Below are positions 970 through 34,341 of a DNA stretch of 64,000 nucleotides, piece after piece (position 1 is the first letter of the stretch; the number at the start of each line of letters is the position of its first letter). Below the pieces are notes generated by a model. That model saw nothing but the letters and a program-made list of their open reading frames with translations, did no database searches and was not told the DNA's origin. Location of the stretch: the NCBI GenBank assembly GCA_964057225.1, contig OZ059897.1:11222001-11286000 (forward strand). The letters run 5' to 3'. Source of the stretch: Auanema rhodensis (lineage: Eukaryota > Animalia > Nematoda). The position numbers and the translations under genes are program-made.

Positions 970-2019
970 TATGTTCTTCAACGTAGTACTTTCCAATCAG
1001 AATTTCATTCCGCAATACTTGACAAATGAGCCCGCACTAAAAACAATATTGTACAATTATATTTTATATCAAATTTTATCGAAAACTTACCAGGATTCCA
1101 CCTTCCTCTGATCCATTCCTTTCACATCTGATGTCGAGGGCTGGGCATTCAGCGTTATCAGCAAAGAAATTTGAGAAATAATACTCTGCGGCTATTTCAA
1201 TGTATTCGAAATTTTTTTCCATGTAGCGAGAGAAATTTGCATTGAATTGGCAATAAATTTCATCAAATTGATGATAGGTGACCAGGAATTTAGCTTTTAT
1301 CAGTGGCATTAGGTGGTTCAAGGCTTGATCAACTGCTTGTTCAATTTGGGTCATTTGTTTCAATGCGGAAGCTTGTCAAGCCCTTTTGAACTTACTCACA
1401 AAAGCTTAACAATTCGCAGTCATGATGTCTCTGAAATTTATAAAATCCATTACAAATATCAAAACATGAACAAATTGAAGATTAAAAAGTATATTGAATA
1501 TTTTCAAAGGATTCTCAGTGTTGGAAACGCCAGAAATCTCTTCCGATTAAAAACATAAAATCTTCCTCCACATTACCAAAAATACATAGACATCTTTCAC
1601 ACGATTAAAATATCATTAAAAAAATCATTAACAATGAGATCCCTGCATCAAAAATGCGGAAGCTTGTCAAGCCCTTTTGAACTTACTCACAAAAGCTTAA
1701 CAATTCGCAGTCATGATGTCTCTGAAATTTATAAAATCCATTACAAATATCAAAATATGAACAAATTGAAGATTAAAAAGTATATTGAATATTTTTAAAG
1801 GATTCTTAGTGTTGGAAACGCCAGAAATCTCTTCCGATTAAGAACATAAAATCTACCTCCACATTTCCAAAAATACATAGACATCTTTCACACGATTAAA
1901 ATATCATTAAAACAATCATTAACAATGAGATCCCTGCATCAAAATTGCCTAATCTTAGCGATAAAGTTCATCAGCAGTGCATATACCAAGGTAATAACTG
2001 TTTATAATAATTTTCAATC
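970..2019 (-). pseudogene. Truncated copy of the atypical kinase-like gene, cut by Tc1 at a TA; contains a 291-bp tandem duplication (1364-1654/1655-~1945)
   Basis: Near-identical to 14585-15340; reads ...IGKYYVEEH then runs into the Tc1 TIR. Confidence 0.7.
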
Positions 2020-2376
2020 GTTCCATTCGAATGATCAATGCATTACATTCATATGACGAAGCTGTAGCAGGCGGGTTAGAGTCAGAGAATGCGAGACTGA
2101 GAGAAGACGACCCGCCCTTTTCCATATTACAACACTTCAGCTTTGCCTCAGGGACGATCATGGATGGTCGGTCGTTCTCTCTCTGTTCTCTATTAGTTTA
2201 ACCTTTACTTAGTTATATGTATCTTATTGTAATCACGTAGATATAATAAACCAATCTTTCTCGAGTCTTATGTTTATCCTTATGCTCCATGTTTAACCGC
2301 TACATCTGGAATACTACCACGCTCATCTTGTAGACTCCATTGGTCTGTAAGATCGACGCGGGAGCATAACGGAACG
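2020..2376 (+). repeat. Probable 5' LTR, (C)GTTCC...GGAACG, with an inner TGTAGC...GCTACA pair at 2063-2304
   Basis: Starts at the host boundary and ends immediately before the PBS; homologous segment at 50708-51043 (-). Confidence 0.6.
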
Positions 2377-2389
2377 TGGAGGTTCCACC
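2377..2389 (+). promoter_or_regulatory. Primer-binding site, tRNA-Gln
   Basis: TGGAGGTTCCACC is complementary to the tRNA-Gln 3' end (GGTGGAACCTCCA); also at 12770-12782 (+), 36695-36707 (-) and 50695-50707 (-). Confidence 0.85.
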
Positions 2390-3887
2390 TCGAACTTATC
2401 ACAATTTTTTTTTCTTCCTTCTCTCTAATGTTTGTGTTGTTAATTTATTTTCAAATCTCTTTCATCTCTCTTTTTCTCATACCATCTACTCTATGTCTTA
2501 ACACAATACGGAGGGGCCAACAACGTTAAATGGGAACAGAGGCAAGTAATCCTTTTTTTTTTAAAGAAGGATTATACGTTTCGAGATTATTATTTTCCCG
2601 TTTGTTCACAAAAAGTTTTTCGTCTGAACCTTTAAATTTCGTATCCTTGCTTATAACATCTGAAATGCTCTGTTACCCAACCTTGAAGCTTGATGAGGGC
2701 TTTAGGCTGAATTAGTGAACAAATTCACCTAAAGTAATTGTTATTTTGTATTTCCCACGCCTTCTCCTTTTTAAGGATTAATTTTGGCTTCAAGGAAAGA
2801 ATAACTTCGGTTATATCTTTATATTTCGTGGATGAAGTTTGTTTTGCGATCAGGACTATTTTATTTTGCGTTACGATTTCGTTCAGACAAATTTTGCTTC
2901 TAACATCCTAAATTTATAATCAGTACGCATGAAAAAAAATTACACGGGAAACCTCACCAGAAAGGGAGGATTGTTAATTTATAGATCGCTATAGTCCGAA
3001 AAATCCTGTTGAAAAATGTTATCTCGAATTTGAATCATGATTAACACAGGTCGTGTTGGCTAAAGCATATCGGTTTGGATTTTCTCCCCTTACTGAATGT
3101 CACCTTCCTCATACCGTTATTGTTGTTCAGAAGCATAAGACTCACGCATTGAACCTTATTCCAACTTTAATACTAGTTCTTGTAATATTTAGCCATTTAA
3201 CTCTGCTTTTATTTCAAAATTCGATTTCTGATCACGAAATATCTACATTCATCATTGCGAAACGCTCTTTTGTAAAACTAATATTACGAATCCCATGACT
3301 TTTGTTACAACGAAACATGCGAGCTACACCAAATGTATTTGAAAACCAGATTGTAAAGAAACAAAAATTATTTTTGGTCACAAAAGAGAAATTGGTGCAC
3401 ATTTATTGTTAAACTGCTCTTTTATCAAAAGCATGTTACGAATTACACCATAAGTTTTGTTGCAAGATGACACACCACATGGTCGAGAAACTAGTGTAAC
3501 AAAACATAAGTTTAGTCAGCATGAGGAAAATGGTTGCATACAAATCAGTAAAATGTGCTGTAATTGAACGAATATTACGAATTACACTAAACGTTTTGTA
3601 AAATAACAGCTTGGTCACCCCAGATGTTTTGTGAATCAGACTTTCAACTACAGAGAAAATACGGAGAGCACCAGAGTCCCGATATCACACAGTAGAAGGC
3701 GGATCCATCGCCATTGGCCAAGGCATCGACCTCATTCTCACAAGTTGTCGATACGACACCGGTCGCTCTCCAAAGCCTTTCTCATTTTGCCTACATCCTC
3801 ATCCTTATTCACAGCATTCTTTAACGTCTCAACATCCCACACGTTACCAAGCACTCAAGGTTTTTTCAAACCAAGAGTTCTAGCAAG

Positions 3888-6800
3888 GTGGCTAAGAGAT
3901 TCCATTCAGCCGTACCTATAAGTACGCATTTCGATTCCCAAGACTCAGCTCCCTTTACCAGAAGTCGAGCTCGAGCTCAAGACGTCGCTATATTAGAAGA
4001 GGAGCAGAAAGTCGACAAGAAGCCGGATAATTTCCTTATTCCTACTACTGATTCTGTCTCACCTACTGAACAACTAGGCGACCCGGACTACGTACCTACT
4101 ATAGAAGAAGAACTATCAATCATTGTGGAGGAACAAACACCGATCACTCCTAAAAAGGTACGCTCCTCTAATTCTAATAAAAATAAGAAAAATCAAAACA
4201 TCAGCGACGCTTCTCTCTCTCTCTCACTAACCGAACCAACCGATTCCCCTTTACTTTCAAAAACTTCTAGCGCGGGTGGGCTTAGTTCTCTTAGAAACAT
4301 TGTTACTGATCTTTTTAACCTTTCGCCTAAAGATAAAACTTTCAACACCAAGCGCAAAAGCAGATATTCATCAGTCCCTAACATTAATATCTCACCAATT
4401 CAACCACCTGCACCAAATACCAGTATTCATCAAACTTCTACTCCCATCTTAACAACAACAGACTCACTTCCTAAGGCACCCAATAGACCTATTCCATCCA
4501 CGCAAACAACCCCTATTTTGGAGACCCCACCAATAACAGGTAGAACGATCAAAATACCATCTACCCGTACGAATAACATCATGACGGAAGCTGTTTCCTC
4601 ACTACCTGGGGCAGGGAAAACAACAATCGCGCAAGCCTTACTTTCGCCTTACTGTCCAACTTACGACGGCAGTCGTAACTTCCGTGATTTTACGGGTAAA
4701 TTCAACTTGTTTGCTAATGCCATTGGCCTTGTTATCCCTGAAAGGTTAGCACTTCTTCCTTTGCTTCTCAAAAATGAAGCAGCAGAAGAAGCTTACAGAC
4801 AAGTTCCTGAACAACTTAAAACAACTGGTTCGTGGAATGATCTGATTAGAGCACTAACATCGAAGCTCTGCCCTGAATATAACCAAGACCCTGCACTTAT
4901 TAACCTTCAGAACACCACGCAAGGGGAATTGACAATTGATGCATACGCCCAAGCATTAAGAACAATGGCATTGAGTGCATTTGCATCTGATGACCCACAT
5001 AAAGATCAAATACTGAGATCAACATTCCTCAGAGGACTTAAAAATACTCTAAAACCAGCTGTAATTCGAGCAAAGCCAAAATCCTTCACAGAAGCGATTG
5101 AAGCCGCTCGCTGGGAGGAATCGATAGTGAACCAAACAACAGACACGCAATCGATGTTGGTCAACGCTGTGAACAAAGCACTAGCACCCTTTGCGCGTAA
5201 TGATGAGAGACGAGATAGCCAAACATTTAATCGCAATTATCAACGCGATAACCAAATGATAAGAAACAATCAAAATTATCAAAATAATCAAAATTATCAA
5301 AATTATCAAAAAAATAAAAACTTTTCTAATTTCAATAATAATCGAAACCGTTACGGTTCTTTCGCTAATAATAATCGCCGTACAAATTATAACGAACAAG
5401 ATAATAGGCAATCGAGTTCTGATTGGCATCAAAGAAATTATAATTTTCGTCATAACAACCAACGAGGTAGATTCAATAACAACAACGGACAAAGAAGAGT
5501 TCAATTCAAAAATCCAAAAGACAACTCAAGAGGAAGAGATAGAAGCTCAACAAGAATAAACTCTGTCACCCTTTCGCCTTTGACGCTCACAGTTATCATG
5601 GCAATAACAGCAGCAATATTCTTGCCCTGTGCATCTACATATCAAATCTGTACAAGAGCAACAGGAGGCGCATTACTTATGCCACCAACAATCAGAAAAT
5701 GCAGATTAACAGAGAAAAACCATGTGCTACGTACAGAAGTTCATCTGTACACAAGAAATCACACAGCACACGAATGGGATGCGTGGCGTTGTTCAGAGGA
5801 AGTACACAAGTTATGCGTACGAGACCTGCTATTCCTCCGCGATACGAACAGAACAATAAATAGAATACAGCCTATAGGAGAGCGCGAGTGCAGACAGGCA
5901 ATCCGCGATCGCAAGTGGAATAACATAGAACTGCAACGCATTGATAGTATCACCCAAGCAACTCCGGAGCCCTCCTATGACTCAGCGCGCGCGTTCAACC
6001 GCGACGCGTGCGAGGAGCGGTCACGTCTAATATTAGAGCGCGGAGTCATGACCCGTATGCCTGACGATACAATATTGTCAAACTTAATATTAATATTAAA
6101 CACGGAAGGATGCAATGCACATCATGGTAATTGTGAATCAAGTACATCAATAATAATATGGGACCCACAAACCACTGCTTCACGTTGTAATTACATCGAT
6201 ATGCATACATATGACGCTATCATTAGTCAAGATACTATTTTAATCCCTAGTACACAATCGGCACTTATTCTTTTGAGCAAACCAACTCCGAAACCTATTT
6301 CTTCTTGCTTCAGGCAGCCAGCGTTCCATACGACATCAGGAAATTATATCATTCTTCCTAAATTTCCAAACGACAACAATATAACCACCCTTATTGAAAG
6401 AGAGTTCAAAAAGCTGCCGTTTAAAAGACCAAAACGTGCAGTCACCGAAGGATGTTCTTTCCCACTGGATCAAGATCGGATCAACGAAGTTGAAGATTAT
6501 GAAACAGTATTGCTTCACGTCTGTCCATATACTTTCCTAAGACCATTAATGAGTAATCCCGGTATTACTTCAATTATTCCTATAATTAAAGGAAGACGTT
6601 TAGTAGATCCAACATACTCTCTAAAGGCATGGATAACATCACATAAAGAAAAATTCGAATTTTTCTTCAGAATTCAAATAAATGAACATTCTGTTCGACA
6701 TTTTCTCAAGCAATACGATTTCAGTGATAAAGAAGAAGCTCTGCTATATTATATAGCACAAAGAGAATTAGCCATTACTACAAAGGCAGCAATATCATAC

Positions 6801-7883
6801 TTAACATCTGAACAGCTTCTCGAACAAATATCAGATCGTTTGACAGTAATCGAATTCGATGAAATCATAAGGAAGAAAGAAGGTTCATATCGCGAACGAA
6901 TTGAAAACATAGCTCTCAATTTAACCAATACACCAGTTATAATTGAAGAAGGATTGACAGTTCCATCACGACAAGAAGTCCTACAAACGTTCATACAAAT
7001 GCCACCAATAAGGAAACGTATACTAACTGACGAGGAAGAGAAGAAAAGCGAATTCATTAAGGCAACGATCAATTTACTAAGAGAACTAAAAACCCTCACA
7101 ACAGTACGATGGAATAAAACTGCAGCATTTATTGATGACAGAAAATTTATAAAATTGCCAGCATCACGACAATTCATGCCAAATACAGATAAACTATTTT
7201 ATGACAGGAAGAATAATTATGGAATACCGATCGGTCCACACCCTAAGCTGATCAAGCCCAGCAATCTTTCAAAGAAATTATTATTGGAAATATTTTTACC
7301 CCTGCTCAATAATGTAAAAACACCTTATACATCGAGTAGGATAACACAAGAACAACTTCAAATCTTAATGGCAGAGGAAAATGAAACAAATTTTCGGCAA
7401 ATCGCAACGCGGACATCCAGCGTCGCGGCAGGCGGCGCGGCTAGCGGCGCGGTTGTGACACCAGTCCAACCTTTGATCGAACAGAAGGGAACAATCCAAT
7501 CAGTTACGACAATACAGCAGCAAATAACGAACAATCCTCACACAAATGCAACAACCACCACAAGAGCACCATCATGGAGGCAACAGCCATCAACAACGGC
7601 GCCTCACACGACCGCTGCGACAACAGCACGCACAACAACATCAACCGCTCGTTCGCCAACAACAACAAGAAGCTATGCCATATACAAAGACGCACAGATT
7701 CCAAAAATACAAGAGACAACCAAAGCCTCTCCAACATTGATTCGAAAAAACCGAGCTTCCTCAACACCATCAGTAGAAACCTCAAATTTAGTGGAAGCAA
7801 ATGCGAGATACATAGCAACGAAAATTGACTCGGTACAAGAGTTTCGTCAAAATATATCGAACGTAAGTATGCTACTACAATGA
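3888..7883 (+). CDS. gag-env: Gag (first ATG 4581) fused in frame to an internal signal peptide (5568-5639) and the N-terminal part of a gB-like envelope
   Basis: Capsid-like region (QGELTIDAYAQALR..., FLRGLK), N/Q/R-rich tail, hydrophobic TLSPLTLTVIMAITAAIFLPCAST|YQIC, Cys-rich ectodomain, furin-type sites RPKR and RKNR, Thr-rich stretch. Confidence 0.85.
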   Translation: MAKRFHSAVPISTHFDSQDSAPFTRSRARAQDVAILEEEQKVDKKPDNFLIPTTDSVSPTEQLGDPDYVPTIEEELSIIVEEQTPITPKKVRSSNSNKNKKNQNISDASLSLSLTEPTDSPLLSKTSSAGGLSSLRNIVTDLFNLSPKDKTFNTKRKSRYSSVPNINISPIQPPAPNTSIHQTSTPILTTTDSLPKAPNRPIPSTQTTPILETPPITGRTIKIPSTRTNNIMTEAVSSLPGAGKTTIAQALLSPYCPTYDGSRNFRDFTGKFNLFANAIGLVIPERLALLPLLLKNEAAEEAYRQVPEQLKTTGSWNDLIRALTSKLCPEYNQDPALINLQNTTQGELTIDAYAQALRTMALSAFASDDPHKDQILRSTFLRGLKNTLKPAVIRAKPKSFTEAIEAARWEESIVNQTTDTQSMLVNAVNKALAPFARNDERRDSQTFNRNYQRDNQMIRNNQNYQNNQNYQNYQKNKNFSNFNNNRNRYGSFANNNRRTNYNEQDNRQSSSDWHQRNYNFRHNNQRGRFNNNNGQRRVQFKNPKDNSRGRDRSSTRINSVTLSPLTLTVIMAITAAIFLPCASTYQICTRATGGALLMPPTIRKCRLTEKNHVLRTEVHLYTRNHTAHEWDAWRCSEEVHKLCVRDLLFLRDTNRTINRIQPIGERECRQAIRDRKWNNIELQRIDSITQATPEPSYDSARAFNRDACEERSRLILERGVMTRMPDDTILSNLILILNTEGCNAHHGNCESSTSIIIWDPQTTASRCNYIDMHTYDAIISQDTILIPSTQSALILLSKPTPKPISSCFRQPAFHTTSGNYIILPKFPNDNNITTLIEREFKKLPFKRPKRAVTEGCSFPLDQDRINEVEDYETVLLHVCPYTFLRPLMSNPGITSIIPIIKGRRLVDPTYSLKAWITSHKEKFEFFFRIQINEHSVRHFLKQYDFSDKEEALLYYIAQRELAITTKAAISYLTSEQLLEQISDRLTVIEFDEIIRKKEGSYRERIENIALNLTNTPVIIEEGLTVPSRQEVLQTFIQMPPIRKRILTDEEEKKSEFIKATINLLRELKTLTTVRWNKTAAFIDDRKFIKLPASRQFMPNTDKLFYDRKNNYGIPIGPHPKLIKPSNLSKKLLLEIFLPLLNNVKTPYTSSRITQEQLQILMAEENETNFRQIATRTSSVAAGGAASGAVVTPVQPLIEQKGTIQSVTTIQQQITNNPHTNATTTTRAPSWRQQPSTTAPHTTAATTARTTTSTARSPTTTRSYAIYKDAQIPKIQETTKASPTLIRKNRASSTPSVETSNLVEANARYIATKIDSVQEFRQNISNVSMLLQ

Positions 7884-9532
7884 TCCAAGAGGAATTGCAG
7901 AAACATTTTGAAGAATCATACGAATCGATTTGCGAGATACAAAATCGGTATCTGGAATTATGGAAATCAATTCTACAAATTGAACCAACAATCGCAATGC
8001 GAACAATACTGGGAAGAGAAGATATAGCCGCACGGTTTGTAGGCAATGAAATTTTGCATATACATGTATGCCCTACAGTGCTAGAGAAAACCATTTATCA
8101 CAATCACACCGTAAATGGCACATGCTATCTCGAAACCCCAGTCTGGACACAAGACGGACAGTTACTGTTTGCAGCACCCGGATCCAAGGATCTTTTACCT
8201 CATGGTAAAGAAATAAGCTGTGATCACGTACCAACAGATATCTGGTCTAGCGAAGGTGAATGGAAAGGAATTAATGGGACTGCAGACGTCAATCTTGTAT
8301 CAATGTGGGACGGACTTCATCACGAAAAAATAACACCATTAAAATTCACCGGAGCTCACTTATACACTAATTTATCGTCTCGTGTATACTTAATGACCAC
8401 AGCCATAGCTTACGGTGCGAGTTTAGCATCGATTCGTCAGAATCACGTTCTTCACACAATTCACAATGATCCAAAGATATCAGCTACATTCAGTGTACTA
8501 AAGAAAAGTAGCGACTACATATCGAAAGCTCAAGAATTCACCAAGAGCACATGGAAGTCATTCATCGATACAATTGCAGGAACGATTGAGCGAACACTAA
8601 TAACGATCGGTGCAATTACATTATTTACCATCATACTCTTTGTGATAGGTTTCATTGTAAAGATCTATTTCTTCAAACCAGTAGGCATACCAGTTATGCA
8701 TATTGCACTCAAAGATCACGACAGTGATCTACCAACATACGAAGAAACTTTGGAATTAGTTAGTCATCCGGACCAACCGATTCCAAGACACATAATGAAA
8801 CAATACTATCCATCAATGCTCACATTCATACCAATCGCACTACCATTAGTTTGCTCGATTTCCAAAAAGAAAGATCAAGCGCTACCACTTCTATGGATGA
8901 CTGTTAACGATAGACTGATCCTAACTTTATGGGACTCAGGTTTGTCCGTCAGTTACATAAGAATATCGACACTACACTACTTAGCTTTGAATGACTTTGT
9001 TAAGAAGAATACATTAAGAGCAACAACAGCGAACGGATCAGAATTTGTATTCATTGGTACTATCGACTTAACCGTCGAAATAGCCGGTTACGAAATCGAC
9101 CATACATTCTTCATATCAGACGACAAAGACTGTCCATCGCCAGCGTTGGTTGGATTAGATTTCATGAAAACACTTGACTGTCAAAACATTGGCATGAAAC
9201 TAAGACCATACAAAAGAACACTGGAAATTGGAAATCATGTAGTACCTTTGGCTAGCGGAATTAACGGGGATATTAACAGGATATCAAAAACTGTTAATTT
9301 GATAACCTTGGAGCCGCGGAGTCTACTTCCTCGACAAGTTTTTAATTTCCAAGTCCAATTAGAGAACCCAATCGGAGAAGACTTAATCGCTATGATTAAA
9401 CCAAACGACAATACACCTCTCTCACCTCGATACGACACAGCATTTCGCGATGTTAACTCCATCAATATCCAATTCCGGAACAATTCTAAAGAATTCATAG
9501 AAATACCGGCCGGCACGCAGAAGCCGAAATAG
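7880..9532 (+). CDS. env-pro: C-terminal envelope (gB-like domain, TM anchor) fused in frame to an aspartic protease
   Basis: EPTIAMRTILGREDIAARFVGNEILHIHVC resembles the gB NPT..G..v.A.f.GD..sv..C segment; TM ITIGAITLFTIILFVIGFIV; protease LWDSG and LVGLDFM. Confidence 0.82.
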   Translation: MIQEELQKHFEESYESICEIQNRYLELWKSILQIEPTIAMRTILGREDIAARFVGNEILHIHVCPTVLEKTIYHNHTVNGTCYLETPVWTQDGQLLFAAPGSKDLLPHGKEISCDHVPTDIWSSEGEWKGINGTADVNLVSMWDGLHHEKITPLKFTGAHLYTNLSSRVYLMTTAIAYGASLASIRQNHVLHTIHNDPKISATFSVLKKSSDYISKAQEFTKSTWKSFIDTIAGTIERTLITIGAITLFTIILFVIGFIVKIYFFKPVGIPVMHIALKDHDSDLPTYEETLELVSHPDQPIPRHIMKQYYPSMLTFIPIALPLVCSISKKKDQALPLLWMTVNDRLILTLWDSGLSVSYIRISTLHYLALNDFVKKNTLRATTANGSEFVFIGTIDLTVEIAGYEIDHTFFISDDKDCPSPALVGLDFMKTLDCQNIGMKLRPYKRTLEIGNHVVPLASGINGDINRISKTVNLITLEPRSLLPRQVFNFQVQLENPIGEDLIAMIKPNDNTPLSPRYDTAFRDVNSINIQFRNNSKEFIEIPAGTQKPK

Positions 9533-9636
9533 GATCTATACCGGACTATGAAATCTTCTCAACAGAACAACAGTACGACTATATTCCACCAGAAGCAGAC
9601 TGGGAAGGCAAATTACCTCACTTCCCTGGTGATTTC

Positions 9637-12594
9637 ATGAAAGAACTTGACCTAAAAGAGGCTGATCTTACGCAACGACAAAAAGACGAACTACGAAACA
9701 TCATTCGTCAACGTAAGAAGGCATTCCTCAATGAAGATAAAAAGATAGGATTGTTCAAAGGACCAGTAGAACACAAGATACCACTACGAACGGATATGGA
9801 TATGCCAAAGCCACGAATTTCACGTATACCTCTCGGGAAACAGGAAGAGGTAGAAAGACAAGTCCAAGAAATGCTCGAGCAAGGGATAATAGAACGATCG
9901 ACATCTTTGTTCAACAGCCCTGTCGTTCTCGTTAAGAAAAAAGACGAAACATTCCGTTTCGTTACGGATTTCCGAGCCTTAAATAACGTTACAAGAAAAC
10001 AAACATATGTGATTCCTAACATCTCTGATATCATTGACTTAGCGGCTGGATCACAATACTTTTCTAATTTTGATCTTGTTTCTGGCTTTTTCCAAATACC
10101 ATTATCGAAGAAGGATAGACCACTCACATCCTTTACCACCAATAGTGGGACTTATCAATACAGGAGAATGCCTATGGGATTATGTGGTGCGCCACATACC
10201 TTTCAAACAGCCGTGAGATATCTCCAAAGTAAATGTAAATGCCGATTATTTGTCTATTTGGACGATTTACTAGTCATATCAGACAGCGCAGAACAACACC
10301 TCGAAGACATCAAAGAAGTATTACTCGCTGTAGAAAGACTAGGATTTAAGATTAAACTCAAGAAATGTTCATTTGCAAGACCAGAAGTGAAATTTCTCGG
10401 ACTCATTGTCGGAAGAGACGGAGTTAAGCCCGATCAACAGAAAGTTTCCGCCATCCGCGATTACCCTGCTCCTCAAACACCCACAGGAGTAAGAGCATTC
10501 TTAGGAATGGTCGGATTCTTTAGAAAATTTATTAAAGATTTTGCACATATAGCAAGTCCGCTGTATGACCTTACTAAGCTAGACGCAGACTTCAATTGGA
10601 CTAGCGAATGTCAACGTTCACTAGATAAGCTAAAGGAACGACTAATCGAAGCACCGGTATTGAAACCACCACGATCAGACCGAACTTTCATCATTGAAAG
10701 TGATGGCAGCAACATCGCCATAGGCGCAGTATTACTGCAGCCCGAAGATCCAAACGAACCATTCAAGAACTTACATCCAATTGCTTTCGCAAGTAGGAAA
10801 TTAGTAAAAGCAGAACGTAACTATGCTCCCATAGAGATAGAAGCCTTAGGCTTAGTTTACGCTCTAGCACAGTTTCGAACATACATACTTGGATCACATT
10901 CAATTTGCATCACTGATCATCGCCCATTGACAAGCTTACTAACTAGAAGAGACCTATTTGGAAGACTAGCAAAGTTCCAATTGGTCATACAGGAATACGA
11001 TATTGAGATCAAATATCGAGAAGGCAGATTAAACAAAGTCTGTGACGCACTCTCTAGATACATTGGAGATGAAGCTAACGATCCAAAGAGGTCGAACAAG
11101 AAACAAAAGACGAATTCGAAAGAGAAAATTGAGACACAACAAGTAAATGTTGTGAAGTTACCAGAATTCAGCTCAATCCAACAAAATACTCCTTGGATCA
11201 AGAGAACAATAGCTGAGATTGAATACAGAACGAAGAAAAATATGATTCAAAATGATCGTTATTGTGTTATAAACAACTTACTCTACACAAAACCAAGCGT
11301 CAAAAGACCTCATCCAGCGTTAATATTGCCATCGGATAGTGATATAATTAACAAAATCATTGAAGAATTTCATGAAGACCCAACAATCGGGGCGCATCAA
11401 GGAATCAACAAAACAAAAGAAGCCATATTACGAAGATTTTCCTGGACTAACATGCAGAACGACATAGCAAAATACGTAAAACAGTGCATCAAATGTGCAC
11501 AACGAAAGAAAGATCCTCATGCTATGACCGTACAACCAATGGGTCAATTTAACATACCAACAAAACCATTTGAGAGAATACATATGGATATCATGGGACC
11601 ATTCCCAACATCAAAAAGGAACAACAGCTATGTCCTCACAATACAAGACTCTTTCTCCAAATGGGCTACAACTATCGCCATACCAACAATTGTTAGTGAA
11701 GTTGTCATTGATAGATTCCTCAGAAACTTTGTATATGTCTATGGACCACCGAACCGCTTAATAACAGACCGCGGTTCCAACTTCCTATCAAGGAAATATG
11801 AAGACATGTGCGAAAAACTCGGTATCAAACATGAATCAACACTCCCACATCAGAAGAATTCCAATGGACAAGTAGAAAGACTTCATAGAACGTTAGAAGA
11901 AGGACTCACACATTATCTCAACGAAGATGTCACTGATTGGGACATGTTTTTGCCAAAAATTACCTTTGCATTGAACACCACAACGCATGCAACCACAGGA
12001 ATATCACCATACGTTGTACTATTCGGGAAAGAAAGCCGTTTGAGATTGGATAAAGATTTATACCCCGAAACAACTGAACCAAAGGAAATTTCAAAGGAGA
12101 TTGAAAATATTGAGAAAATCCAAAGCAAACAGAAAACAATCATTCAAGAAAATTTGGAAAAGCATCAAGAATTAGCAAAAAAGAAACATGATGCTCGATT
12201 ACGCACTCACGAAAGAGATATACAAGAAGGAGACTGCGTTATGTTAGCTGTGAAAATGCACAAGCCAGGACAAAAGCTTCGGAAAGCTTATGATGGACCA
12301 TTTGAAGTTATTAATGTGAAGGGAAACATGGTTCAAATCAAAAACCTTTTCGGAAAGATCCAAGACGTTCACAAGGACAATCTCAAATTATTTAATCGAG
12401 AAACAGATGACGGAATCGCACATAAGATCAATGCATTACATTCATATGACGAAGCTGTAGCAGGCGGGTTAGAGTCAGAGAATGCGAGACTGAGAGAAGA
12501 CGACCCGCCCTTTTCCATATTACAACACTTCAGCTTTGCCTCAGGGACGATCATGGATGGTCGGTCGTTCTCTCTCTGTTCTCTATTAGTTTAA
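9637..12594 (+). CDS. pol: Pol: reverse transcriptase, RNase H, integrase (frame is open from ~9517)
   Basis: SPVVLVKKKD, DFRALN, MPMGL, YLDD, DGS..AIGAVL, TDHRPL, HHCC, MD..GP, TDRGSNF, NGQVER and GPF motifs. Confidence 0.96.
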   Translation: MKELDLKEADLTQRQKDELRNIIRQRKKAFLNEDKKIGLFKGPVEHKIPLRTDMDMPKPRISRIPLGKQEEVERQVQEMLEQGIIERSTSLFNSPVVLVKKKDETFRFVTDFRALNNVTRKQTYVIPNISDIIDLAAGSQYFSNFDLVSGFFQIPLSKKDRPLTSFTTNSGTYQYRRMPMGLCGAPHTFQTAVRYLQSKCKCRLFVYLDDLLVISDSAEQHLEDIKEVLLAVERLGFKIKLKKCSFARPEVKFLGLIVGRDGVKPDQQKVSAIRDYPAPQTPTGVRAFLGMVGFFRKFIKDFAHIASPLYDLTKLDADFNWTSECQRSLDKLKERLIEAPVLKPPRSDRTFIIESDGSNIAIGAVLLQPEDPNEPFKNLHPIAFASRKLVKAERNYAPIEIEALGLVYALAQFRTYILGSHSICITDHRPLTSLLTRRDLFGRLAKFQLVIQEYDIEIKYREGRLNKVCDALSRYIGDEANDPKRSNKKQKTNSKEKIETQQVNVVKLPEFSSIQQNTPWIKRTIAEIEYRTKKNMIQNDRYCVINNLLYTKPSVKRPHPALILPSDSDIINKIIEEFHEDPTIGAHQGINKTKEAILRRFSWTNMQNDIAKYVKQCIKCAQRKKDPHAMTVQPMGQFNIPTKPFERIHMDIMGPFPTSKRNNSYVLTIQDSFSKWATTIAIPTIVSEVVIDRFLRNFVYVYGPPNRLITDRGSNFLSRKYEDMCEKLGIKHESTLPHQKNSNGQVERLHRTLEEGLTHYLNEDVTDWDMFLPKITFALNTTTHATTGISPYVVLFGKESRLRLDKDLYPETTEPKEISKEIENIEKIQSKQKTIIQENLEKHQELAKKKHDARLRTHERDIQEGDCVMLAVKMHKPGQKLRKAYDGPFEVINVKGNMVQIKNLFGKIQDVHKDNLKLFNRETDDGIAHKINALHSYDEAVAGGLESENARLREDDPPFSILQHFSFASGTIMDGRSFSLCSLLV

Positions 12595-13647
12595 CCTTTA
12601 CTTAGTTATATGTATCTTATTGTAATCACGTAGATATAATAAACCAATCTTTCTCGAGTCTTATGTTTATCCTTATGCTCCATGTTTAACCGCTACATCT
12701 GGAATACTACCACGCTCATCTTGTAGACTCCATTGGTCTGTAAGATCGACGCGGGAGCATAACGGAACGTGGAGGTTCCACCTCGAACTTATCACAATTT
12801 TTTTTTCTTCCTTCTCTCTAATGTTTGTGTTGTTAATTTATTTTCAAATCTCTTTCATCTCTCTTTTTCTCATACCATCTACTCTATGTCTTAACACAAT
12901 ACGGAGGGGCCAACAACGTTAAATGGGAACAGAGGCAAGGAATCCTTTTTTTTTTAAAGAAGGATTATACGTTTCGAGATTATTATTTTCCCGTTTGTTC
13001 ACAAAAAGTTTTTCGTCTGAACCTTTAAATTTCGTATCCTTGCTTATAACATCTGAAATGCTCTGTTACCCAACCTTGAAGCTTGATGAGGGCTTTAGGT
13101 TGAATTAGTGAACAAATTCACCTAAAGTAATTGTTATTTTGTATTTCCCACGCCTTCTCCTTTTTAAGGATTAATTTTGGCTTCAAGGAAAGAATAACTT
13201 CGGTTATATCTTTATATTTCGTGGATGAAGTTTGTTTTGCGATCAGGACTATTTTATTTTGCGTTACGATTTCGTTCAGACAAATTTTGCTTCTAACATC
13301 CTAAATTTATAATCAGTACGCATGAAAAAAATTACACGGGAAACCTCACCAGAAAGGGAGGATTGTTAATTTATAGATCGCTATAGTCCGAAAAATCCTG
13401 TTGAAAAATGTTATCTCGAATTTGAATCATGATTAACACAGGTCGTGTTGGCTAAAGCATATCGGTTTGGATTTTCTCCCCTTACTGAATGTCACCTTCC
13501 TCATACCGTTATTGTTGTTCAGAAGCATAAGACTCACGCATTGAACCTTATTCCAACTTTAATACTAGTTCTTGTAATATTTAGCCATTTAACTCTGCTT
13601 TTATTTCAAAATTCGATTTCTGATCACGAAATATCTACATTCATCAT
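12426..13647 (+). repeat. Second copy of LTR (missing first 13 nt) + PBS + 5' leader
   Basis: Nearly identical to 2033-3255 (a few substitutions/indels); no polypurine tract upstream. Confidence 0.9.
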
Positions 13648-16369: not shown

Positions 16370-17140
16370 TTAGGTACCGGAAAAAGTAATCAACGTTTCA
16401 AATTCAATTAGTCATTTTTTATATATTTGGCGGGATATAATAAAATTAATTATAAAAATATAAACAGCATAAATAACTACTCTTTATATATTAGGTCCCC
16501 TAGTTTTTCGAATTTTTTCGAAAAATTAAAAATTAAAAATTATTTAAAATTAAGGAAATTTGAATATTTTAAAACAATATTATCAAAAAAAAGTTTCAAA
16601 AAACAAATTTTTTTGTTTGAAAAATTGATTTTTATTTTCCATCTTTTTTTTTTGCTGTTTTCCGTTATGAATTCTACTCATGCGCGCCATTTTCTTTTTT
16701 ATCGTTTTAATGAAGGATTATCTGCGAAAGCAGCCTTTAAAAAAATGAGAGCTGTTTATGGAGATTCATCTCCAAACTACAGCACCTGCAAAAGATGGTA
16801 ATCGCGTTTGGCGAAACCGATTTAAAAGATCGTCCAAGGTCGGGAGCTGGTAAGAAATTCAGCAACGCAGACCTTCAGAATGTTTTGGATGAGAATCCTG
16901 AAGCAACTCAGCTTCAAATGTGAAACATTCTAAAAGTCAGCGATGTTGCTATTTCAAAAAGATTGAAAAAAATGGGTAAAATCCATAAAATTTCACCTTT
17001 TTCCCCGCATGTTCTGACTGAGAGTAATCTCAGATCGAGAATAAGTTTGGCTCAGGATCTTCTGAAAATGAGCCAATGCATTAATTATTTAATGCATGTG
17101 TAGTGATCATATATTCTGAATAAAATTATTTTTTTGAAGA

Positions 17141-17628
17141 TTGAAAATGGTCTACTTGAGTGTTACAATTCGCTCAGTTCTGCTTCATGAATTTAAGAAC
17201 AATTTTAAAGCTTCTAAAGCTGCTCAAAAAATTAGAAGAGTGTTCGGTGATGATGCTGTGAGTGACGGAGTGGCAAGATTCTGGTTCAGAAGATTTAAAA
17301 CAGGAAATGAAAATAAACCAAAAAAAAAACCTAAAAATAAACCAAGAGTTACTTGTCAGAAACTATGTAGAGATTTCAATTGTGATGAATCTACAGTTAG
17401 GAAGCGTCTACATGAGTTGAACTACATCAAAATGCTCGACAAATGGATTCCACATACTCTCTCCGAAGACAATAAGTTGACTCGCCTGACTATAGCTGCT
17501 TTTCTACTCTCTATGAATTGTCAGGACCCTTTCATCGATCGTATTCTCACCTGTGATAAAAAATAGGTTGAATACGATAACTTCAGTAGATCAGCACAAT
17601 GGGTTCAACGAGGAGAACCGGCAGGAAC
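17141..17628 (+). pseudogene. Mariner transposase, 5' half
   Basis: WIPHTL, ILTCD; ...SAQWVQRGEPAGT joins in frame to IAKKALTAKK at 31815. Confidence 0.88.
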
Positions 17629-18311: not shown

Positions 18312-21300
18312 GCACTAGGATTTGACTATGAAGAAATCAATCAACTTAGGTAATTTAACAATATTTTGAATTTATTTATACATATTTTTTTTTTTTTAGT
18401 AAACGTATAAAGTTTACCGAGGCTGGTGGGATCGAGCTCTGTGAGCTTACAGCACCCACTTTTAATAGTGGGCTCTCATCATCAGGGGTTTTTGAAATAA
18501 TAACCTTGGATGACAGTGATGAGTAAGCGATATTAAAAATTATAACAATTAGTTTTTTTCTTTTTTAAGAGAATGAAATCCCGCTACCCCATCAACCAGT
18601 GGAGGGCAAGTCGGATATGGAGCGACATTCAACGATGTCTGTAAAATAGAGGTGCGATCTTTTATTTACATATTATTTCATAATATATCTTTTGAAACAT
18701 GAAATTTTCTCTTGCTCCAATTGCATATTTTGAAAACATTTTGAAATTTATTTCTCTTTTTCAATTGCATACATGAAATTCTTTCTCTCTCATCTTTACA
18801 TTTCATCTCAATCTATATCTTTTATCAAACAAATTGCAAATATTTTGAAATTTATATATTCATTCTTTTGAACAGCATTCATCTTAAAATTTTTACATTT
18901 CATCTCACTATATATCTTTCTTTCAATCAATTTTGATTTCTTACAAATTATAAATATTTCAAACATTTTGAACTAGTAAAATAATAAAACACCATCTTGT
19001 CCTTCTCAATTATTTTAAAACATTTTTCGAACAACAATTTAAACATTTTAACAAATGTTTATAAAAGTTTTTTCAAAGTTGAAAAAAAAAACTTTATATT
19101 TAAAAATCAAATGCCATTTATTTTTAATAAAAGCATATAAAAATAATTTAAAGAAAAGTAAATTTATTAAAACTTATAAACAAAAATTATTTATAATTAA
19201 ATTAAAAGCGTATAACCATTATAAAAAGTGTGTATTATAGTGGTCACACCGACGCATAAAACGCACCGGTCGGTTCACCAACGTGGTCGTTAGATCGCTC
19301 ACGTTCCCACATTTGGAAACCATTAATGAGCCAATGCATGTTGTCATGCCGCGGTTATTTAATGAGTTTCTTGATCGGTGCCTTGCTGAAAGTGGTGTGC
19401 CAGATAAACAAAAAGCGCTATTTTGTCTATCAATAGAGCACCCATCCTTTGAAAAGGGATCCATATTTATGGATTTCCGTAGAAGGGAGCATTTGGATGG
19501 CGTTGCCATCATGAATCCCATCAGCAAGGTGCAGCAATCAAAGCGAGAGGCTGTAATTAGCCAGGCAATGAATATTGAAATGTATGTGTTTGATGAAAGA
19601 CCGGTGCAGCCAAGCTTGATGCCTGGTGAAGGTAGAGTTGGTTTCTATTTTGATGCCGAACTCAAAATACCTGGCACAATTGAAAACACTGACACTCATT
19701 GCCTGGCTAGAGCAGCAGTTGTGGGAATATGGAAAGCCGATGAAGAGGCAGCAGAAGATGTTATTGAGAAGCGGAGGATTGAAAATCTTTTTGTTGCCAA
19801 ATCAACCACATCATATCAATTTATTAAATAGGTGTGGCATTTCTTTACATTTACCAAATTATAATTTAAACCATTTAAATATTATTGCAAGTTGTAATAC
19901 AGACTATAAGTTTGTAGTATACGCTAGGCCACCTGGACAGCGTATGTACGCTATTCAGCGTATCTTTAATGAAACGGCTAGCAAAGTGGTAACACTAGGC
20001 TACCGAAATAATCATTATGACTATATTACAACTTGTAGTAGATCACAGCTTTTTTATGGTATTATATGCCAACACTGTAAATTATCTTACAAAACAGTGT
20101 TGCATAGATGTAAAGCCAAGTGTAAGAAATGCCACACCTTAAAATGTAATTCGATGGAAAATGTGGTTGAAAGTAGCATAAGATGTGATAGTTGTAGAGT
20201 TTTGTTTAAAACTCGTCAATGCTTTGACAGGCATATTAGAAAAACATGTCGAATGCTAAAGGTAATTTAAAAAATATATATAAAATTTTACAAGACTAAA
20301 TTCAGACATGTGAAAACTGTGATCATTATCACAGAGTACGTGCTGATAGACCGCACAATTGCAATGAGAAATTTTGCAAAAAGTGTGGTCAGACAAAGCC
20401 TGAAGATCATTCTTGTTGTTGGGTACCACCTAACGACAAGAAAAAGGATCAGTTAAAAAAGAGGCAAGAGAAATACAAGGTTTGTATTTAACATCTTTAC
20501 AAGTGTAATGCTTACTTGTTTAAGATTATATTTTATGACTTTGAAACGGTTGTGTTAAAAAACGGTACAAATGTTCATGAATATGCAGATGAACAATGGC
20601 CCAATATGGTTGTGTATAACAAATTTTGTGGAAGTTGTATAGATGCCAACTCATGTGAAAAATGCACAACCAAGGAGGGCCAGTTTGGGTATCAACAAGG
20701 TGATAGTGAATGGTCTGTAACAGATCGTCTCCTTGATTGGTTACTCAACTCTGTTGAGAATGATAATGCAATTTTGATAGCGCATAATGGTTCACGCTTT
20801 GACATACATTTCTTGGTGTCTAGGCTGATAAACCGTGGAATATATCCTGATCCAATTTTAAATGGGACCAAGATTATTAGCATGGTTGTCAAGCCTTTAA
20901 GAGGTCAAAAATTTAATCATTTATATTTTAAAGATAGTTATTTATTAGTGCCTTTACCCCTATCAGCGTTACCCAAGGCATTTGGTGTACCTGATATGAG
21001 TAAAGGACAGTTTCCTTACCTCTTTAACCATCCAATAAATTATGGCAAAGTGTTACCATCTTTACCACCAAAACAGTACTATTGTACTGCTAGAATGAAA
21101 GCAGAAGACCTAGCTTCATTCAATATTTGGTATGAAGAGCGTAATCAAAGAGCGTTTGATTTTACTGAAGAGCTTTTGGAATATTGTAGGACAGATGTCC
21201 GTATTTTAACCAACTGTATGAAAGTTTACATGAAGTTGGCAACCGCCACCACTGGCTGGAACCCTGTCATACAATGTATGACATTTGCCAGTTTCTCTTT

Positions 21301-22855
21301 ATTCCAGGCAAGTTTTTTAAAATACAAGCATTTTCAAAACTAGTATATTACAGTTGTAAATGAACCACATTAAAGAGAACCAAGTGGGTATTCTGCCCGA
21401 GACTGGTTATTATGCCGGTCAAAAGCAGAGTATAATAGCCATAAAGTATATAAAATGGCTAGAACAAGGATTGGGCCGCCCATAAATGCATAAGCTTAAT
21501 GGTGGTGAATTTGCAGTGAGAGTAGATGGCCATCGCTATCTACTCGATGCTTATGACCCCGTTGCCAATCATGGCTATGAGGTGAGTAATTTGTAATAAA
21601 TGTAAAAAATGTAAATTTTTGTAGATTAATGGTTGTATTTACCATGGTTGTCCCCAGTGCACCAACAAGAGCGCTATAGCACCAGCCAGAAATGGTGAAA
21701 CAATGGAAGAGGTAATTGTGACTTTTTAAATCATTTTAATTTGAAAATATTAGGTTTATGATAAAACCATGAAAAGGCTTGAAGCAATTCAAAGCCAAGG
21801 CATTAGTGTTACCACAGTGTGGGAGCACGAAATTAATGTACAAATTTCGGCCAATGAAGAAATGGCGAAATTTATGCGTGAAACAAATGTAGTTACACGC
21901 TTGGCACCTAGAGATGCCTTTACCGGTGGCCGCACCCAGACATATAAGCTTTTGGCACAAGCTTCGGATAGATACTCGCTCGAGTATGTGGACTTTTGTT
22001 CACTATATCCATATGTCACCGCTTTTGATGCCTACTACCCTGTAGGTAATTCCAAAGTGATTACTGAGGGTTTCAAAAGCTTAGAGGCATGCTGCCCGTA
22101 CAAGGGTCTAGTAAAATGTGACGTGCTTGCACCCACAAATTTGCTGTACCCTGTATTAGGCACACGTATTGGCGGTAAACTAATTTTTACAAACTGCCGC
22201 ACTTGTGCAGTCAAAAGTAAAAATGTAACATGTGAGCACCAAAATGATGTAAATGCTCGAAAACCGCATCTAACTGTGGCACATGTTGAGCTTGAGTGTG
22301 CCATACAACGTGGCTATAAAGTGCTTCATGTGCATCAGGTGTGGCACTGGGAAGAATGGCAACAAGGCGGCCTGTTTAAAGAGTTTGTACAAAAGTACAT
22401 AAAAATTAAACAAGAGGCGTCGGGCTGGCCAAAGCCAAACATGACAGAGCAAGAAAAGGTATGTTTTAATAAAAGTATCACATTAAATAGAATATTACAG
22501 GTGATATATCTCCAAGAACACGAGGAGAACACTGGTGTTGCTCTGGAGAGCAATAAAATTGAAAAGAATGCTGCCATGCGTAGCATTGCCAAACTGCAGC
22601 TAAATAGGTTTGTAAACTTTTTAAAACAATACATTACAAGTTTGCTTATAGTGTCTGGGGTAAAATGGGTCAAAGACCTGATAAAGCCCAAACCAAGATT
22701 ATTGGTGTTGAGGACCCAGAAATTGGTAGGATCATTACTGATCCTGCAAGGGAACTCACTGGGTTCAAAATTGTGGATAATGTTGCGTACTGCACAACAG
22801 TACCAGAGGATTCACACTTGGCACCACCGCCTTTTACAAACCTTTACACCTTTTA
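18312..22855 (+). pseudogene. pPolB: Protein-primed DNA polymerase B, multi-exon, with stops/frameshift and 3' truncation
   Basis: Exo I FYDFET, Exo II AHNGSRFD, KDS, KGQFPY, Exo III YCRTDV, GCIYHGC insert, GGRT, motif A DFCSLYP, motif B AKLQLNS|VWGK restored by splicing. Confidence 0.93.
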
Positions 22856-24130
22856 CTCTGCATAAACAATTGCATATAAGCCCTCTTGCGGCGTTTGTTG
22901 ACCAAATTCCAATTTCAAGGCTACATTACCTTGTCATATAACATCAAATAACTCTGACGAATGCACAGTAGGAGAAAGATCAAATACAAAAAATGTGAAA
23001 CCAGCTTTATACATTGCTGGTGTAATACCATTGGATGAATCTGTACGACCAAGTCCCAAACCTTCCAGCATGTCAATATATGATGTGGCATAGGAAGATC
23101 GCCATTCTAAATTATAAGGACGGGTAGGTATTACCCTATTGTTGAGCGTCAAGTATATATTTTTCAAATCAAACGGTTTAAAGTTGAATGGCGGATGTTT
23201 AAAAGTACCATTATAAGCGTGTGCGCCAACAAGACCTACTACAACACGTTTTGGTGTGTGAGACGTGAATAATATATTATTAGGTGAATCCAAGCGGCCT
23301 CCTTCTATGAAATAAGAGCGCATTTTCACTGATGTCATGGGGTAGTGTATTTGATCCTTTGCGAGTTTATCTTCTATTGCCATAGCTAATCCAGCGTTTA
23401 GATCAAACTCTTGAATGAGCAAATGTACATCGCTGATATCTACTTTCAAATTTGGAAACTCCTCCTTTGATGTAGTATCCTTGTTTTCATTATTCCAGCC
23501 TAGAGTGTCAATTAAAAAGTTATCACGGTTTGGATATGCAGTTAGCTCCATTTTTGAATAGTTTACAAACAGTCGCTCTTGATTAAATAGGTCGATACTG
23601 ACGGGAGCAGCCATCTCACACAATATGCCATTTTTTACAAGCGCTTGACGCGTTCTAAATCCAGCACTGGATGCATTATCTATATATCTATCAGCATAAT
23701 AGCCTGATATGGCAAGTTTGCTCTCTTTAACATCGTTGCTATACATTAAAATATTCTCGATATATGTTTTATAGGCATGATTCACGGTAGAGTCATACAC
23801 GCTAACATCACCAATTTTCAAATGATACGAATGTATTAAACTGGCAGCAAATTGTTGACATGGTGCAAAAACAAGGTTATCTGGTACTGGATCACCGTTT
23901 GTGGTTACAATTTTAAATTTTACATTCAACCAACATCTTCTCAGATTGAGGAATGATTTGGAATTTTGAGCTATAACAAATTCCCATGGTCCTTGAGGAA
24001 GAAACGTATTTTTCAAAGGGACTTGTACAGTACGAGTAGACTCTACACCTAATGCCGACGCTGGTATATCACCATAGTTGATATTAGGTAAAAGGGCTTG
24101 TGCTGATTTTGAATCTATCAATTTAGCCAT
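22855..24130 (-). CDS. Major capsid protein (double jelly-roll, PY), with a nonsense codon at 22934-22936 and a truncated C-terminus
   Basis: PKRVVVGLV...AYNG..K.PPFNF, GFTFFVFDL, GNVALKLEF...LYAIVYAE are typical of Polinton MCP. Confidence 0.9.
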
Positions 24131-24583
24131 ATAAATGTGAAACGACCGCTCACGAGTGATGCACAACCGCTTATGAGGTTTTATGGTTTTGCGTCGTCGC
24201 CGTTTGCCCAAGCCGGTAAGATCTCGTATAGCTTGCCGGCCGGCTGTTTTAAGAGTTTCCTTGATATTATCGTCTTTCAGCACCCCATCGACAATTTCAT
24301 TACCAGTTTTCAGCAACTGTCCGCCAAGAGGTGAACTTACAACTGGACTATTGCTTACAGCACTGGATAAGGCGTTTCTTCCGGCATTGATGAGATTTTG
24401 GGCTATAGGTGATTGAATGATGCGTGGTAGAAATGATGCCAGAGTTGCCAAAATACCACCCAAACCATGACCCCTCTGCATTCCACGTTGAAACATCATT
24501 CCGCTAAATGGGGCGCCACCCATTTGTTGATTTAAAAGTGTTGTCCATTGAATAGAGTTGACATCCAAAAGGAGGTGCGGCAT
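24131..24583 (-). CDS. Basic core protein (QRGHGLGG / adenain-cleavage motif family), in frame with MCP
   Basis: FSGMMFQRGMQRGHGLGGILATLASFL amphipathic segment, LTGLG, KRRRRK. Confidence 0.75.
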
Positions 24584-24634
24584 ATCGAACCGCACGCGCG
24601 CAACACAAAAGTTACACTAGATCATTCTACTAAA

Positions 24635-25090: not shown

Positions 25091-25131
25091 GAAATTTGTC
25101 ATTAATAACCTGCTACATTACGTGGTCAGTT

Positions 25132-25302: not shown

Positions 25303-25343
25303 AAGTGGGTTGATTGCGTGTGGTCGTTTTTCATTTTCCTCTA

Positions 25344-25808: not shown

Positions 25809-25813
25809 AACGT

Positions 25814-27401: not shown

Positions 27402-27413
27402 AGTGCTTGTTCA

Positions 27414-34313: not shown

Positions 34314-34341
34314 AACTTCTTTTTTTTCAATCAAAAGATCT

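What the first reader, a model, noticed from the sequence alone, without database searches (positions are those of the whole stretch)
3888..12594. Gypsy element with a gB-like fusogen placed between Gag and Pol, apparently as one membrane-threaded polyprotein
Seen: Gag runs in frame into a signal-like hydrophobic stretch (5568-5639) and a Cys-rich ectodomain. The Env TM anchor (~8594-8672) runs in frame through a short tail (LPTYEE) into the aspartic protease. The two frame breaks (~7855-7880 and ~9517) fall inside domains or linkers and lack slippery heptamers, so they look like lesions in one ~2900-aa ORF. Known: the usual order is gag-pol-env, with env on a separate spliced ORF; the EPT..G...ARFVG..C segment is a class III (herpes gB/chuvirus-like) signature. 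Inference: Gag cytosolic, Env lumenal, then PR-RT-IN cytosolic and tethered to the Env tail. This flavivirus/alphavirus-style strategy would fix Gag:Env:Pol stoichiometry and could package Pol via Env.
Basis: partly seen in the sequence, partly recalled or inferred. Interest (0 to 1): 0.88.

Follow-up and report, generated by a model that had tools for sequence, protein, structure and literature searches.

The report
Nematode retroelement with envelope inside polyprotein
This is a damaged copy of a jumping gene, likely from a nematode, whose family puts a herpesvirus-gB-like membrane-fusion protein between its capsid and its enzymes in one long protein; the layout is real but already published for nematodes.

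Summary
This is a Ty3/gypsy element ordered Gag, signal segment, Env, membrane anchor, protease, RT, RNase H, integrase. Both Env halves fold like herpesvirus gB. The two frame breaks are lesions of this copy: contigs from 5 of 5 DNA runs differ in length at both places, an Auanema protein spans both breaks unbroken, and 13 of 156 fetched proteins carry every domain in this order in one chain.

The layout is known: GAG-ENV-POL errantiviruses with gB-type Env in Nematoda (PMC13524379, citing Sacco 2022). This scan also found it before in other animals, mostly flatworms. Fixed stoichiometry and Pol packaging through Env are untested; RNA data were too thin.

Details I did not find in print: a lineage-specific insert of about 500 aa in the gB furin loop, protease-site-like and PTAP/PSAP motifs enriched in relatives' Env tails, and LTRs ending CG...CG. 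The LTR is 358 bp. The copy lacks its pol end and is followed by the head of a second copy. Verdict: new member of a known kind.

The parts
2019..2376 (+). 5' LTR, 358 bp; ends form a 6-bp inverted repeat that starts and ends with CG, not TG...CA
   Evidence: contigs of run X8 break away exactly before 2019 and behind 2376, run X3 behind the equivalent place 12769
2377..2388 (+). Primer-binding site, tRNA-Gln type
   Evidence: same 12-mer as listed for Clat_errantivirus_4 and Ctro_errantivirus_1 in Supplementary file 1 of PMC13524379
2389..4580 (+). Long 5' leader; its last 756 nt are an open frame without ATG, in frame with gag
   Evidence: part of this frame is conserved in the relic on the minus strand
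4581..5561 (+). Gag from the first ATG: capsid domain (about 4752-5144) and an Asn/Arg-rich nucleocapsid-like tract without a CCHC finger
5562..5639 (+). Internal signal segment, predicted to translocate Env; preceded by a protease-site-like INSV motif (5556)
   Evidence: Hydropathy; motif; a hydrophobic segment at this place in 45 of 47 relatives with sequence there. SignalP was not available
5640..6425 (+). Env N-terminal half: class III fusion domain and PH-like domain (gB domains I and II)
   Evidence: AlphaFold mean pLDDT 86; Foldseek to gB E 5e-9; VIA-align Z 11.5, rmsd 10.9, 234 aligned, to HSV-1 gB 2gum
6426..6437 (+). Furin-type site RPKR (predicted)
   Evidence: RTKR at the same place in P0001; R-x-K/R-R in this linker in 33 of 64 relatives
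6441..7800 (+). Lineage-specific insert in the gB domain II-III loop: about 310 aa of unknown fold, then about 135 aa Ser/Thr-rich (33%) mucin-like tract
   Evidence: 44% identical to P0001 and 22% to P0043; no informative match in Pfam, PDB sequences or ESM Atlas
7829..7883 (+). Frame break 1, inside the predicted gB domain III helix; a lesion of this copy
7868..8590 (+). Env C-terminal half: central helix, crown domain and membrane-proximal region (gB domains III-V)
   Evidence: Pfam; profile against PDB gB E 8e-14; model pLDDT 79; Foldseek gB domain IV E 9e-5
8594..8674 (+). Env transmembrane anchor (predicted)
   Evidence: present in 71 of 74 relatives with Env-C and protease
8675..8878 (+). 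Cytosolic Env tail and linker, with LPTY (8729) and a hydrophobic pre-protease segment
8879..9230 (+). Aspartic protease (DSG at 8933)
   Evidence: Pfam gag-asp_proteas E 1e-6
9490..9532 (+). Frame break 2, in the protease-RT linker; a lesion of this copy
   Evidence: P0001 is continuous here
9580..12425 (+). RT (9931-10407), RNase H (10678-10998), integrase (11338-11847) and a weak SH3-like match (12229-12327); the end of pol and the polypurine tract are missing in this copy
   Evidence: Pfam; contigs that run on unlike the window beyond 12426
12426..12769 (+). 3' LTR lacking its first 14 nt
12770..13646 (+). Second PBS and start of the leader: head of a truncated tandem copy, 99.75% identical to 2033-3254 when counted with the LTR

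Best explanation
This is a defective copy, likely from a nematode, of a Ty3/gypsy GAG-ENV-POL element whose family encodes Gag, a gB-like class III Env and Pol in one reading frame, predicted to be made as one membrane-threaded polyprotein. Shown: domain order, class III fold of both Env halves, continuity of the frame in relatives, and length differences at both breaks in near-identical copies. Inferred: Gag is made in the cytosol; the internal signal segment moves Env into the ER; the anchor stops transfer and returns the tail and Pol to the cytosol. Signal peptidase would free the Env N-terminus and leave Gag held at the membrane by the signal segment. Furin would cut the RPKR loop. The element's own protease would cut at V/I-N-x-V/I-like sites before the signal segment, in the Env tail and within Pol, so Gag and Pol would be membrane-tethered only until maturation. 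This copy would stop translation at 7883, before the Env anchor, and lacks the end of pol, so it is probably not autonomous.
For: Fold. Breaks: 5 of 5 DNA runs laid (X1-X4, X8; 3 studies) have bridging contigs with only a few letter differences that are longer than the window at both breaks, by amounts that are not multiples of three and fit the frame offsets. For X3 and X4, break 1 is seen only as the gap total of the bridging contig. P0001 (Auanema, 1666 aa on a 5045-nt contig, so almost no room for an intron) matches all three frames in order at 45%, 48% and 72%. 13 of 156 fetched proteins have gag-envN-envC-PR-RT-RH-IN in one chain, and one more has an extra piece; they include Caenorhabditis remanei and C. 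brenneri proteins and JGI/IMG and Logan gene calls. Topology conserved: hydrophobic segment before Env in 45 of 47, anchor after Env in 71 of 74. The motif [VI]N[ASN][VIL] is in 30 of 71 tails (shuffle mean 2.0, max 6) and 8 of 37 pre-signal segments (mean 0.3, max 3), but only 10 of 71 ectodomains (mean 7.9). The published family has the same order, Env type and PBS (PMC13524379).
Against: No RNA evidence on splicing or translation. Contigs collapse copies and drop rare variants, and the runs may be other strains or species. I did not translate the contigs across the breaks, so a stop-free frame in these very copies is inferred from lengths and from P0001. Many relatives are eukaryotic gene models that could hide frame breaks in predicted introns. 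The protease-site motif was chosen by eye from the same proteins, and the proteins are related, so the shuffle test overstates independence. The window's own tail has no match to the tested motif, only a looser VCSI. Hydropathy was a simple window scan.
Confidence: 0.85

Rival explanations
1. The genomic frame is continuous, but splicing makes separate Gag, Gag-Pol or Env messages, so the membrane-threaded full-length protein is a minor product and stoichiometry is not fixed.
For: Cer1, a nematode gypsy element, makes CERV from a spliced five-exon mRNA of its polyprotein region (PMC10309623, passages). A capsid needs far more Gag than Pol (general knowledge). The 756-nt ATG-free open frame before the first ATG could be an exon fed from upstream.
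Against: The signal segment, anchor and cytosolic-side protease-like sites are conserved as expected for one threaded chain. No TTTCAG or TTTTAG acceptor in 2377-5700 and only one TTTCAG in the coding region.
Confidence: 0.25
2. The breaks are programmed frameshifts that set Gag:Env:Pol ratios.
For: Both offsets are in the -1 direction (frames), as in many retroelements.
Against: No slippery heptamer in either overlap. Break 1 lies inside the predicted domain III helix. Near-identical copies differ in length at both places. P0001 and 13 full-length relatives are continuous.
Confidence: 0.02
3. The env is a recent chance capture or nested insertion into a gag-pol element.
For: No target-site duplication is visible and the locus is rearranged.
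Against: The same junctions are conserved at 45-48% identity in Auanema and across dozens of more distant relatives. Env cysteines are invariant in the alignment.
Confidence: 0.01

Closest known systems
GAG-ENV-POL errantiviruses of Nematoda with HSV/gB-type ENV (Chary and Hayashi, eLife 2026, PMC13524379), nearest by eye Clat_errantivirus_4 in alignment group Nematoda_C1
   Same: Gene order, gB-type Env bounded by signal segment and anchor, identical tRNA-Gln PBS 12-mer, similar LTR size. In the Env tree the window and P0001 sit in a 6-row clade (SH-aLRT 99, quick tree) with P0009, P0037, P0048 and P0096; P0096 looks nearly the same as the supplement's Clat_4 row (by eye).
   Different: This copy is broken. 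The insert of about 500 aa, the tail motifs and the CG LTR ends were not found in the sections and term searches I read; its figures and figure supplements could not be seen. No Auanema element is in its element table.
Nematode endogenous retroviruses (NERVs; Sacco et al. 2022, J Gen Virol, doi 10.1099/jgv.0.001739)
   Same: Flipped ENV and POL order in nematodes, as cited in PMC13524379. Recalled, not seen: one continuous gag-env-pro-pol ORF and an Env resembling Nyamiviridae glycoproteins; a Nyavirus glycoprotein ranks 4th in BFVD.
   Different: The paper is not held, so RT clade membership and its accessory ORFs could not be compared.
Herpesvirus gB and other class III fusogens (rhabdovirus G, thogotovirus GP, GP64)
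   Same: Fusion domain, PH-like domain, central helix and crown domain; furin-type site in the domain II-III loop.
   Different: Embedded in a retroelement polyprotein; the short gB loop is replaced by about 500 aa; identity about 10-18%.
Nematode BEL/Pao elements with envelopes (Atlas virus, PMC9094657, search listing only; Tas, recalled)
   Same: Envelope-carrying nematode LTR elements; an earlier scan note describes Atlas as a single Gag-Pol-Env polyprotein.
   Different: Env lies after Pol there, and Atlas Env is phlebovirus-like class II. This element has Ty3-type capsid and Pol families.

Membership tests
Ty3/gypsy LTR retrotransposon (Metaviridae) | Pol order protease, RT, RNase H, integrase | tested here: met
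Ty3/gypsy LTR retrotransposon (Metaviridae) | Ty3-type capsid Gag | tested here: met
   Retrotrans_gag above its cut-off; Ty3_capsid E 7e-5, below its cut-off
Ty3/gypsy LTR retrotransposon (Metaviridae) | LTRs and a tRNA primer-binding site | tested here: met
   LTR ends are CG rather than the usual TG...CA
Ty3/gypsy LTR retrotransposon (Metaviridae) | Target-site duplication | tested here: inconclusive
   None seen; the 3' end is a truncated tandem copy, so the original junction is gone
Nematode GAG-ENV-POL HSV/gB-type errantivirus (PMC13524379) | Order GAG-ENV-POL | tested here: met
Nematode GAG-ENV-POL HSV/gB-type errantivirus (PMC13524379) | HSV/gB-type ectodomain between a signal segment and a transmembrane anchor | tested here: met
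Nematode GAG-ENV-POL HSV/gB-type errantivirus (PMC13524379) | Placement in the paper's POL tree with nematode elements | not tested
Nematode GAG-ENV-POL HSV/gB-type errantivirus (PMC13524379) | Cysteine-bridge configuration of the Nematoda_C1 group | tested here: inconclusive
   Resemblance by eye only; the figure defining the bridges could not be seen
Intact errantivirus copy (the paper's inclusion criterion) | Uninterrupted ORFs in this copy | tested here: not met
   Two frame breaks and a lost pol end; filed as a defective copy, not as an intact element
NERV (Sacco 2022; features recalled) | One continuous gag-env-pro-pol ORF in the family | tested here: met
   P0001 and 13 of 156 proteins; length differences in contigs
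NERV (Sacco 2022; features recalled) | RT in the NERV clade | not testable with these tools
   Paper and its sequences not held
Class III viral fusogen | Fusion domain inserted in PH-like domains, central helix, crown domain | tested here: met
   The two halves were folded separately and both match gB
Class III viral fusogen | Trimer formation and membrane fusion activity | not testable with these tools
   Needs bench work; no complex was predicted
BEL/Pao with envelope | BEL-type Gag/Pol families and env after pol | tested here: not met
   No BEL-specific Pfam family up to E 1, and env lies before the protease

The most novel reading that the evidence does not exclude
These nematode elements turned the gB furin loop into a swappable surface module: 140-530 aa inserts that fall into 17 unrelated groups, which would act like a retroviral receptor-binding subunit or shield and set which cells are entered. 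They also moved the budding signal (PTAP/PSAP) from Gag to a protease-clipped Env tail, so that the Env tail recruits ESCRT while carrying Pol into the particle. This lineage further integrates with CG rather than CA ends.
Probability: 0.25. Interest if true: 0.62.

Novelty: new member of a known kind. Interest (0 to 1): 0.27.

Why it matters
As a layout it adds little: it is the published arrangement for env-carrying gypsy elements of nematodes. What remains useful is mechanism, which the paper I read does not address: how one threaded chain yields a cytosolic capsid, a lumenal class III fusogen and packaged enzymes. The conserved signal and anchor, the cytosolic-side protease-like sites, the tail PTAP/PSAP motifs and the variable insert give specific testable points. 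A class III fusogen carrying its own exchangeable surface module would interest people who study how gB-like proteins find receptors.

Tried and rejected
No whole genome is held, so genomic copy number was not counted. No RNA holder listed. Three runs guessed to be RNA gave 3, 0 and 3 short low-depth contigs, with no joint in the coding region; this says nothing about expression or splicing. One of them spans the tail-protease junction (8671-8894, depth 2.4) but may be DNA. No relative in viral contigs. The 62 metagenome loci found with RT were distant and none matched Env. A word-based search with the Env N-half of P0001 returned only itself. The insert found nothing usable in ESM Atlas, PDB sequences or Pfam (18 relatives); it was not folded, as both jobs went to the gB core. 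PPxY/LPxY as a family late domain was rejected: 2 of 71 tails against a shuffle mean of 2.6. An intron at break 1 was considered because a GTAAG donor-like site lies at 7863; rejected because the contigs differ inside this site and an intron would remove part of the conserved helix. My first reading of 1.22-kb LTRs was rejected after finding the PBS inside the repeat; the 99.75% identity therefore dates a tandem duplication, not an insertion. A tandem layout for the relic near 50700 was considered and dropped: 1.2 kb of unrelated-looking DNA separates its LTR from the integrase fragment. The careful tree did not finish; only the quick tree is cited. Literature searches; those for 'gag-env-pro', for PTAP late domains with nematode retrotransposon envelopes, and for non-canonical LTR termini found nothing relevant by title and abstract start. 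Subscription papers are not searched.

Full report
What is there. The region holds three stop-to-stop frames on the + strand: 3825-7883, 7829-9532 and 9490-12594. Pfam places Gag in the first, the gB/Monjiviricetes fusion match and the protease in the second, and RT, RNase H and integrase in the third. A hydropathy scan finds one hydrophobic segment in frame 1 (5562-5648), one in frame 2 (8582-8698) and none in frame 3. The first in-frame ATG is 4581.

Env is class III. I folded the two halves separately. The N-half (5640-6440, 30-row alignment) gave mean pLDDT 86. Foldseek's listed PDB hits were all herpesvirus gB, best E 5e-9. The independent aligner ranked five gB chains first (top Z 11.5, rmsd 10.9, 234 aligned), then Chandipura G and thogotovirus GP, above PH domains at Z about 5. 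In BFVD the top hits were glycoproteins of negative-strand RNA viruses, including a Nyavirus, with entomopoxvirus proteins and gB close behind. The C-half (7868-8587) gave pLDDT 79, matched gB domain IV at E 9e-5, and its profile matched gB sequences at E 8e-14. TM-scores were modest (about 0.35-0.5), as expected for half-molecules.

The breaks are lesions. Neither frame overlap has a slippery heptamer. Five of five DNA runs laid, from three studies, have bridging contigs with few letter differences that are longer than the window at both breaks, by amounts that are not multiples of three and fit the frame offsets. For two runs break 1 shows only in the gap total of the bridging contig. I did not translate these contigs, so their open frame is inferred. 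P0001 from Auanema matches the three frames in order in one chain, at 45%, 48% and 72% identity. Of 156 fetched proteins, 13 have gag-envN-envC-PR-RT-RH-IN in one chain; most others are fragments in the same order or unrelated gypsy polyproteins. Some are gene models that could hide breaks; three looked up come from JGI/IMG or Logan contigs only slightly longer than an element. Contigs drop rare variants, so I cannot say how many copies share the breaks, nor fully exclude an assembly fault.

The element's ends. The 1.22-kb repeat is not the LTR. A tRNA-Gln-type PBS lies inside it at 2377 and 12770, identical to the PBS listed for two Caenorhabditis elements in the paper's supplement. The LTR is 2019-2376, with a 6-bp terminal inverted repeat that begins and ends with CG. 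Contigs break away at 2019 and 2376 and at 12769, and a relic 75% alike has the same right end. The 3' LTR lacks its first 14 nt, and contigs of two runs continue for about 460 nt unlike the window beyond 12426, so this copy has lost the end of pol and its polypurine tract. It is followed by the PBS and leader of a second, truncated copy. No target-site duplication is visible; the flanks belong to a 291-bp host repeat.

How it likely works. Shown by comparison: a hydrophobic segment precedes Env in 45 of 47 relatives with sequence there, and an anchor follows it in 71 of 74. The motif [VI]N[ASN][VIL] is enriched in Env tails (30 of 71; shuffle mean 2.0, max 6) and just before the signal segment (8 of 37; mean 0.3), less so in Gag (10 of 37; mean 3.3, max 10) and Pol (22 of 71; mean 10.7, max 19), and not in the ectodomain (10 of 71; mean 7.9). 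I read it as the element's protease site; the motif was picked by eye and the proteins are kin. Inferred: one chain threads the ER membrane twice; signal peptidase, furin (RPKR at 6426) and the element's protease release the parts; Gag and Pol are tethered only until maturation. Fixed stoichiometry and Pol packaging through Env remain untested, and Cer1 shows that nematode gypsy elements splice their polyprotein region (PMC10309623, passages).

Less ordinary details. The linker between Env halves is 36-531 aa in relatives (median 117; one of 64 values unusable), and about 500 aa here. By the structural alignment it sits where gB has a short loop. Thirty-one linkers of 140 aa or more, the window's included, fall into 17 groups with no BLAST link between them; the window's matches only P0001 and P0043.

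What is known. PMC13524379 (I read the abstract, section 5 part 1, sections 6 and 14, term passages, and parts of three supplementary tables; figures were not visible) states that errantiviruses of Nematoda, Bryozoa and Platyhelminthes carry only HSV/gB-type ENV arranged GAG-ENV-POL, and credits Sacco 2022 for nematodes. It lists about 36 nematode elements (72 term occurrences, two per row; I saw 30 rows). Its main text has no occurrence of 'polyprotein', 'late domain' or 'cytoplasmic tail'. Sacco 2022 is not held; that it reports one continuous gag-env-pro-pol ORF is my recollection. Unseen figure supplements and that paper may already describe the inserts or LTR ends. PMC7084138 (passages) added nothing on this layout. 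The scan's earlier notes report the same layout in other animals and none for this sequence.

Verdict. Real, coherent and already explained as a layout: a defective new member of the nematode GAG-ENV-POL gB-type group. Interest 0.27; the insert, tail motifs and CG ends are the parts worth following.

Noticed in passing
window 2019-2376, 12426-12769 and 50708-50713 (minus strand): LTR ends read CG...CG instead of TG...CA, in this element and at the right end of a relic 75% alike, while another LTR with the same PBS at 36707 (minus) ends in CA. This would mean an integrase with an unusual end preference.
   Followed up: partly
window 3825-4580: 252 open codons without ATG precede the first ATG of gag and are partly conserved in the relic; a non-ATG start or an upstream exon is possible. 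Unexplained.
   Followed up: partly
window 48600-51080 (minus strand) and 52314-53457 (minus strand): A degenerate related element (LTR, PBS, leader, gag start) and a separate RNase H-integrase fragment.
   Followed up: partly
window 8807-8860: A second hydrophobic, proline-containing segment just before the protease is conserved in P0001 and a few relatives (P0009, P0050) but not in most; it may touch the membrane or mark a cleavage site.
   Followed up: partly
window 8933-8944: The residue after the protease DSG motif is a bulky one, atypical for these proteases; activity of this copy's protease is uncertain.
   Followed up: no
window 3280-3620: The leader holds three or four imperfect repeats of about 60-80 nt, seen by eye; a possible packaging or export signal.
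   Followed up: no
window 19241-29459, 41061-46767 and 53444-64000: Several near-identical, rearranged pieces that look like a Maverick/Polinton (DNA polymerase, capsid-like, ATPase, cysteine protease and chromo-integrase ORFs; named from recall, repeats).
   Followed up: no
window 33273-34400, 38834-39451 and 16412-17566: Tc1/mariner-like transposase ORFs and fragments (by eye).
   Followed up: no
P0002 and P0003: Env-before-Pol polyproteins of about 3770 aa with three protease-like domains and extra hydrophobic segments after integrase; they resemble the flatworm elements in earlier notes.
   Followed up: no
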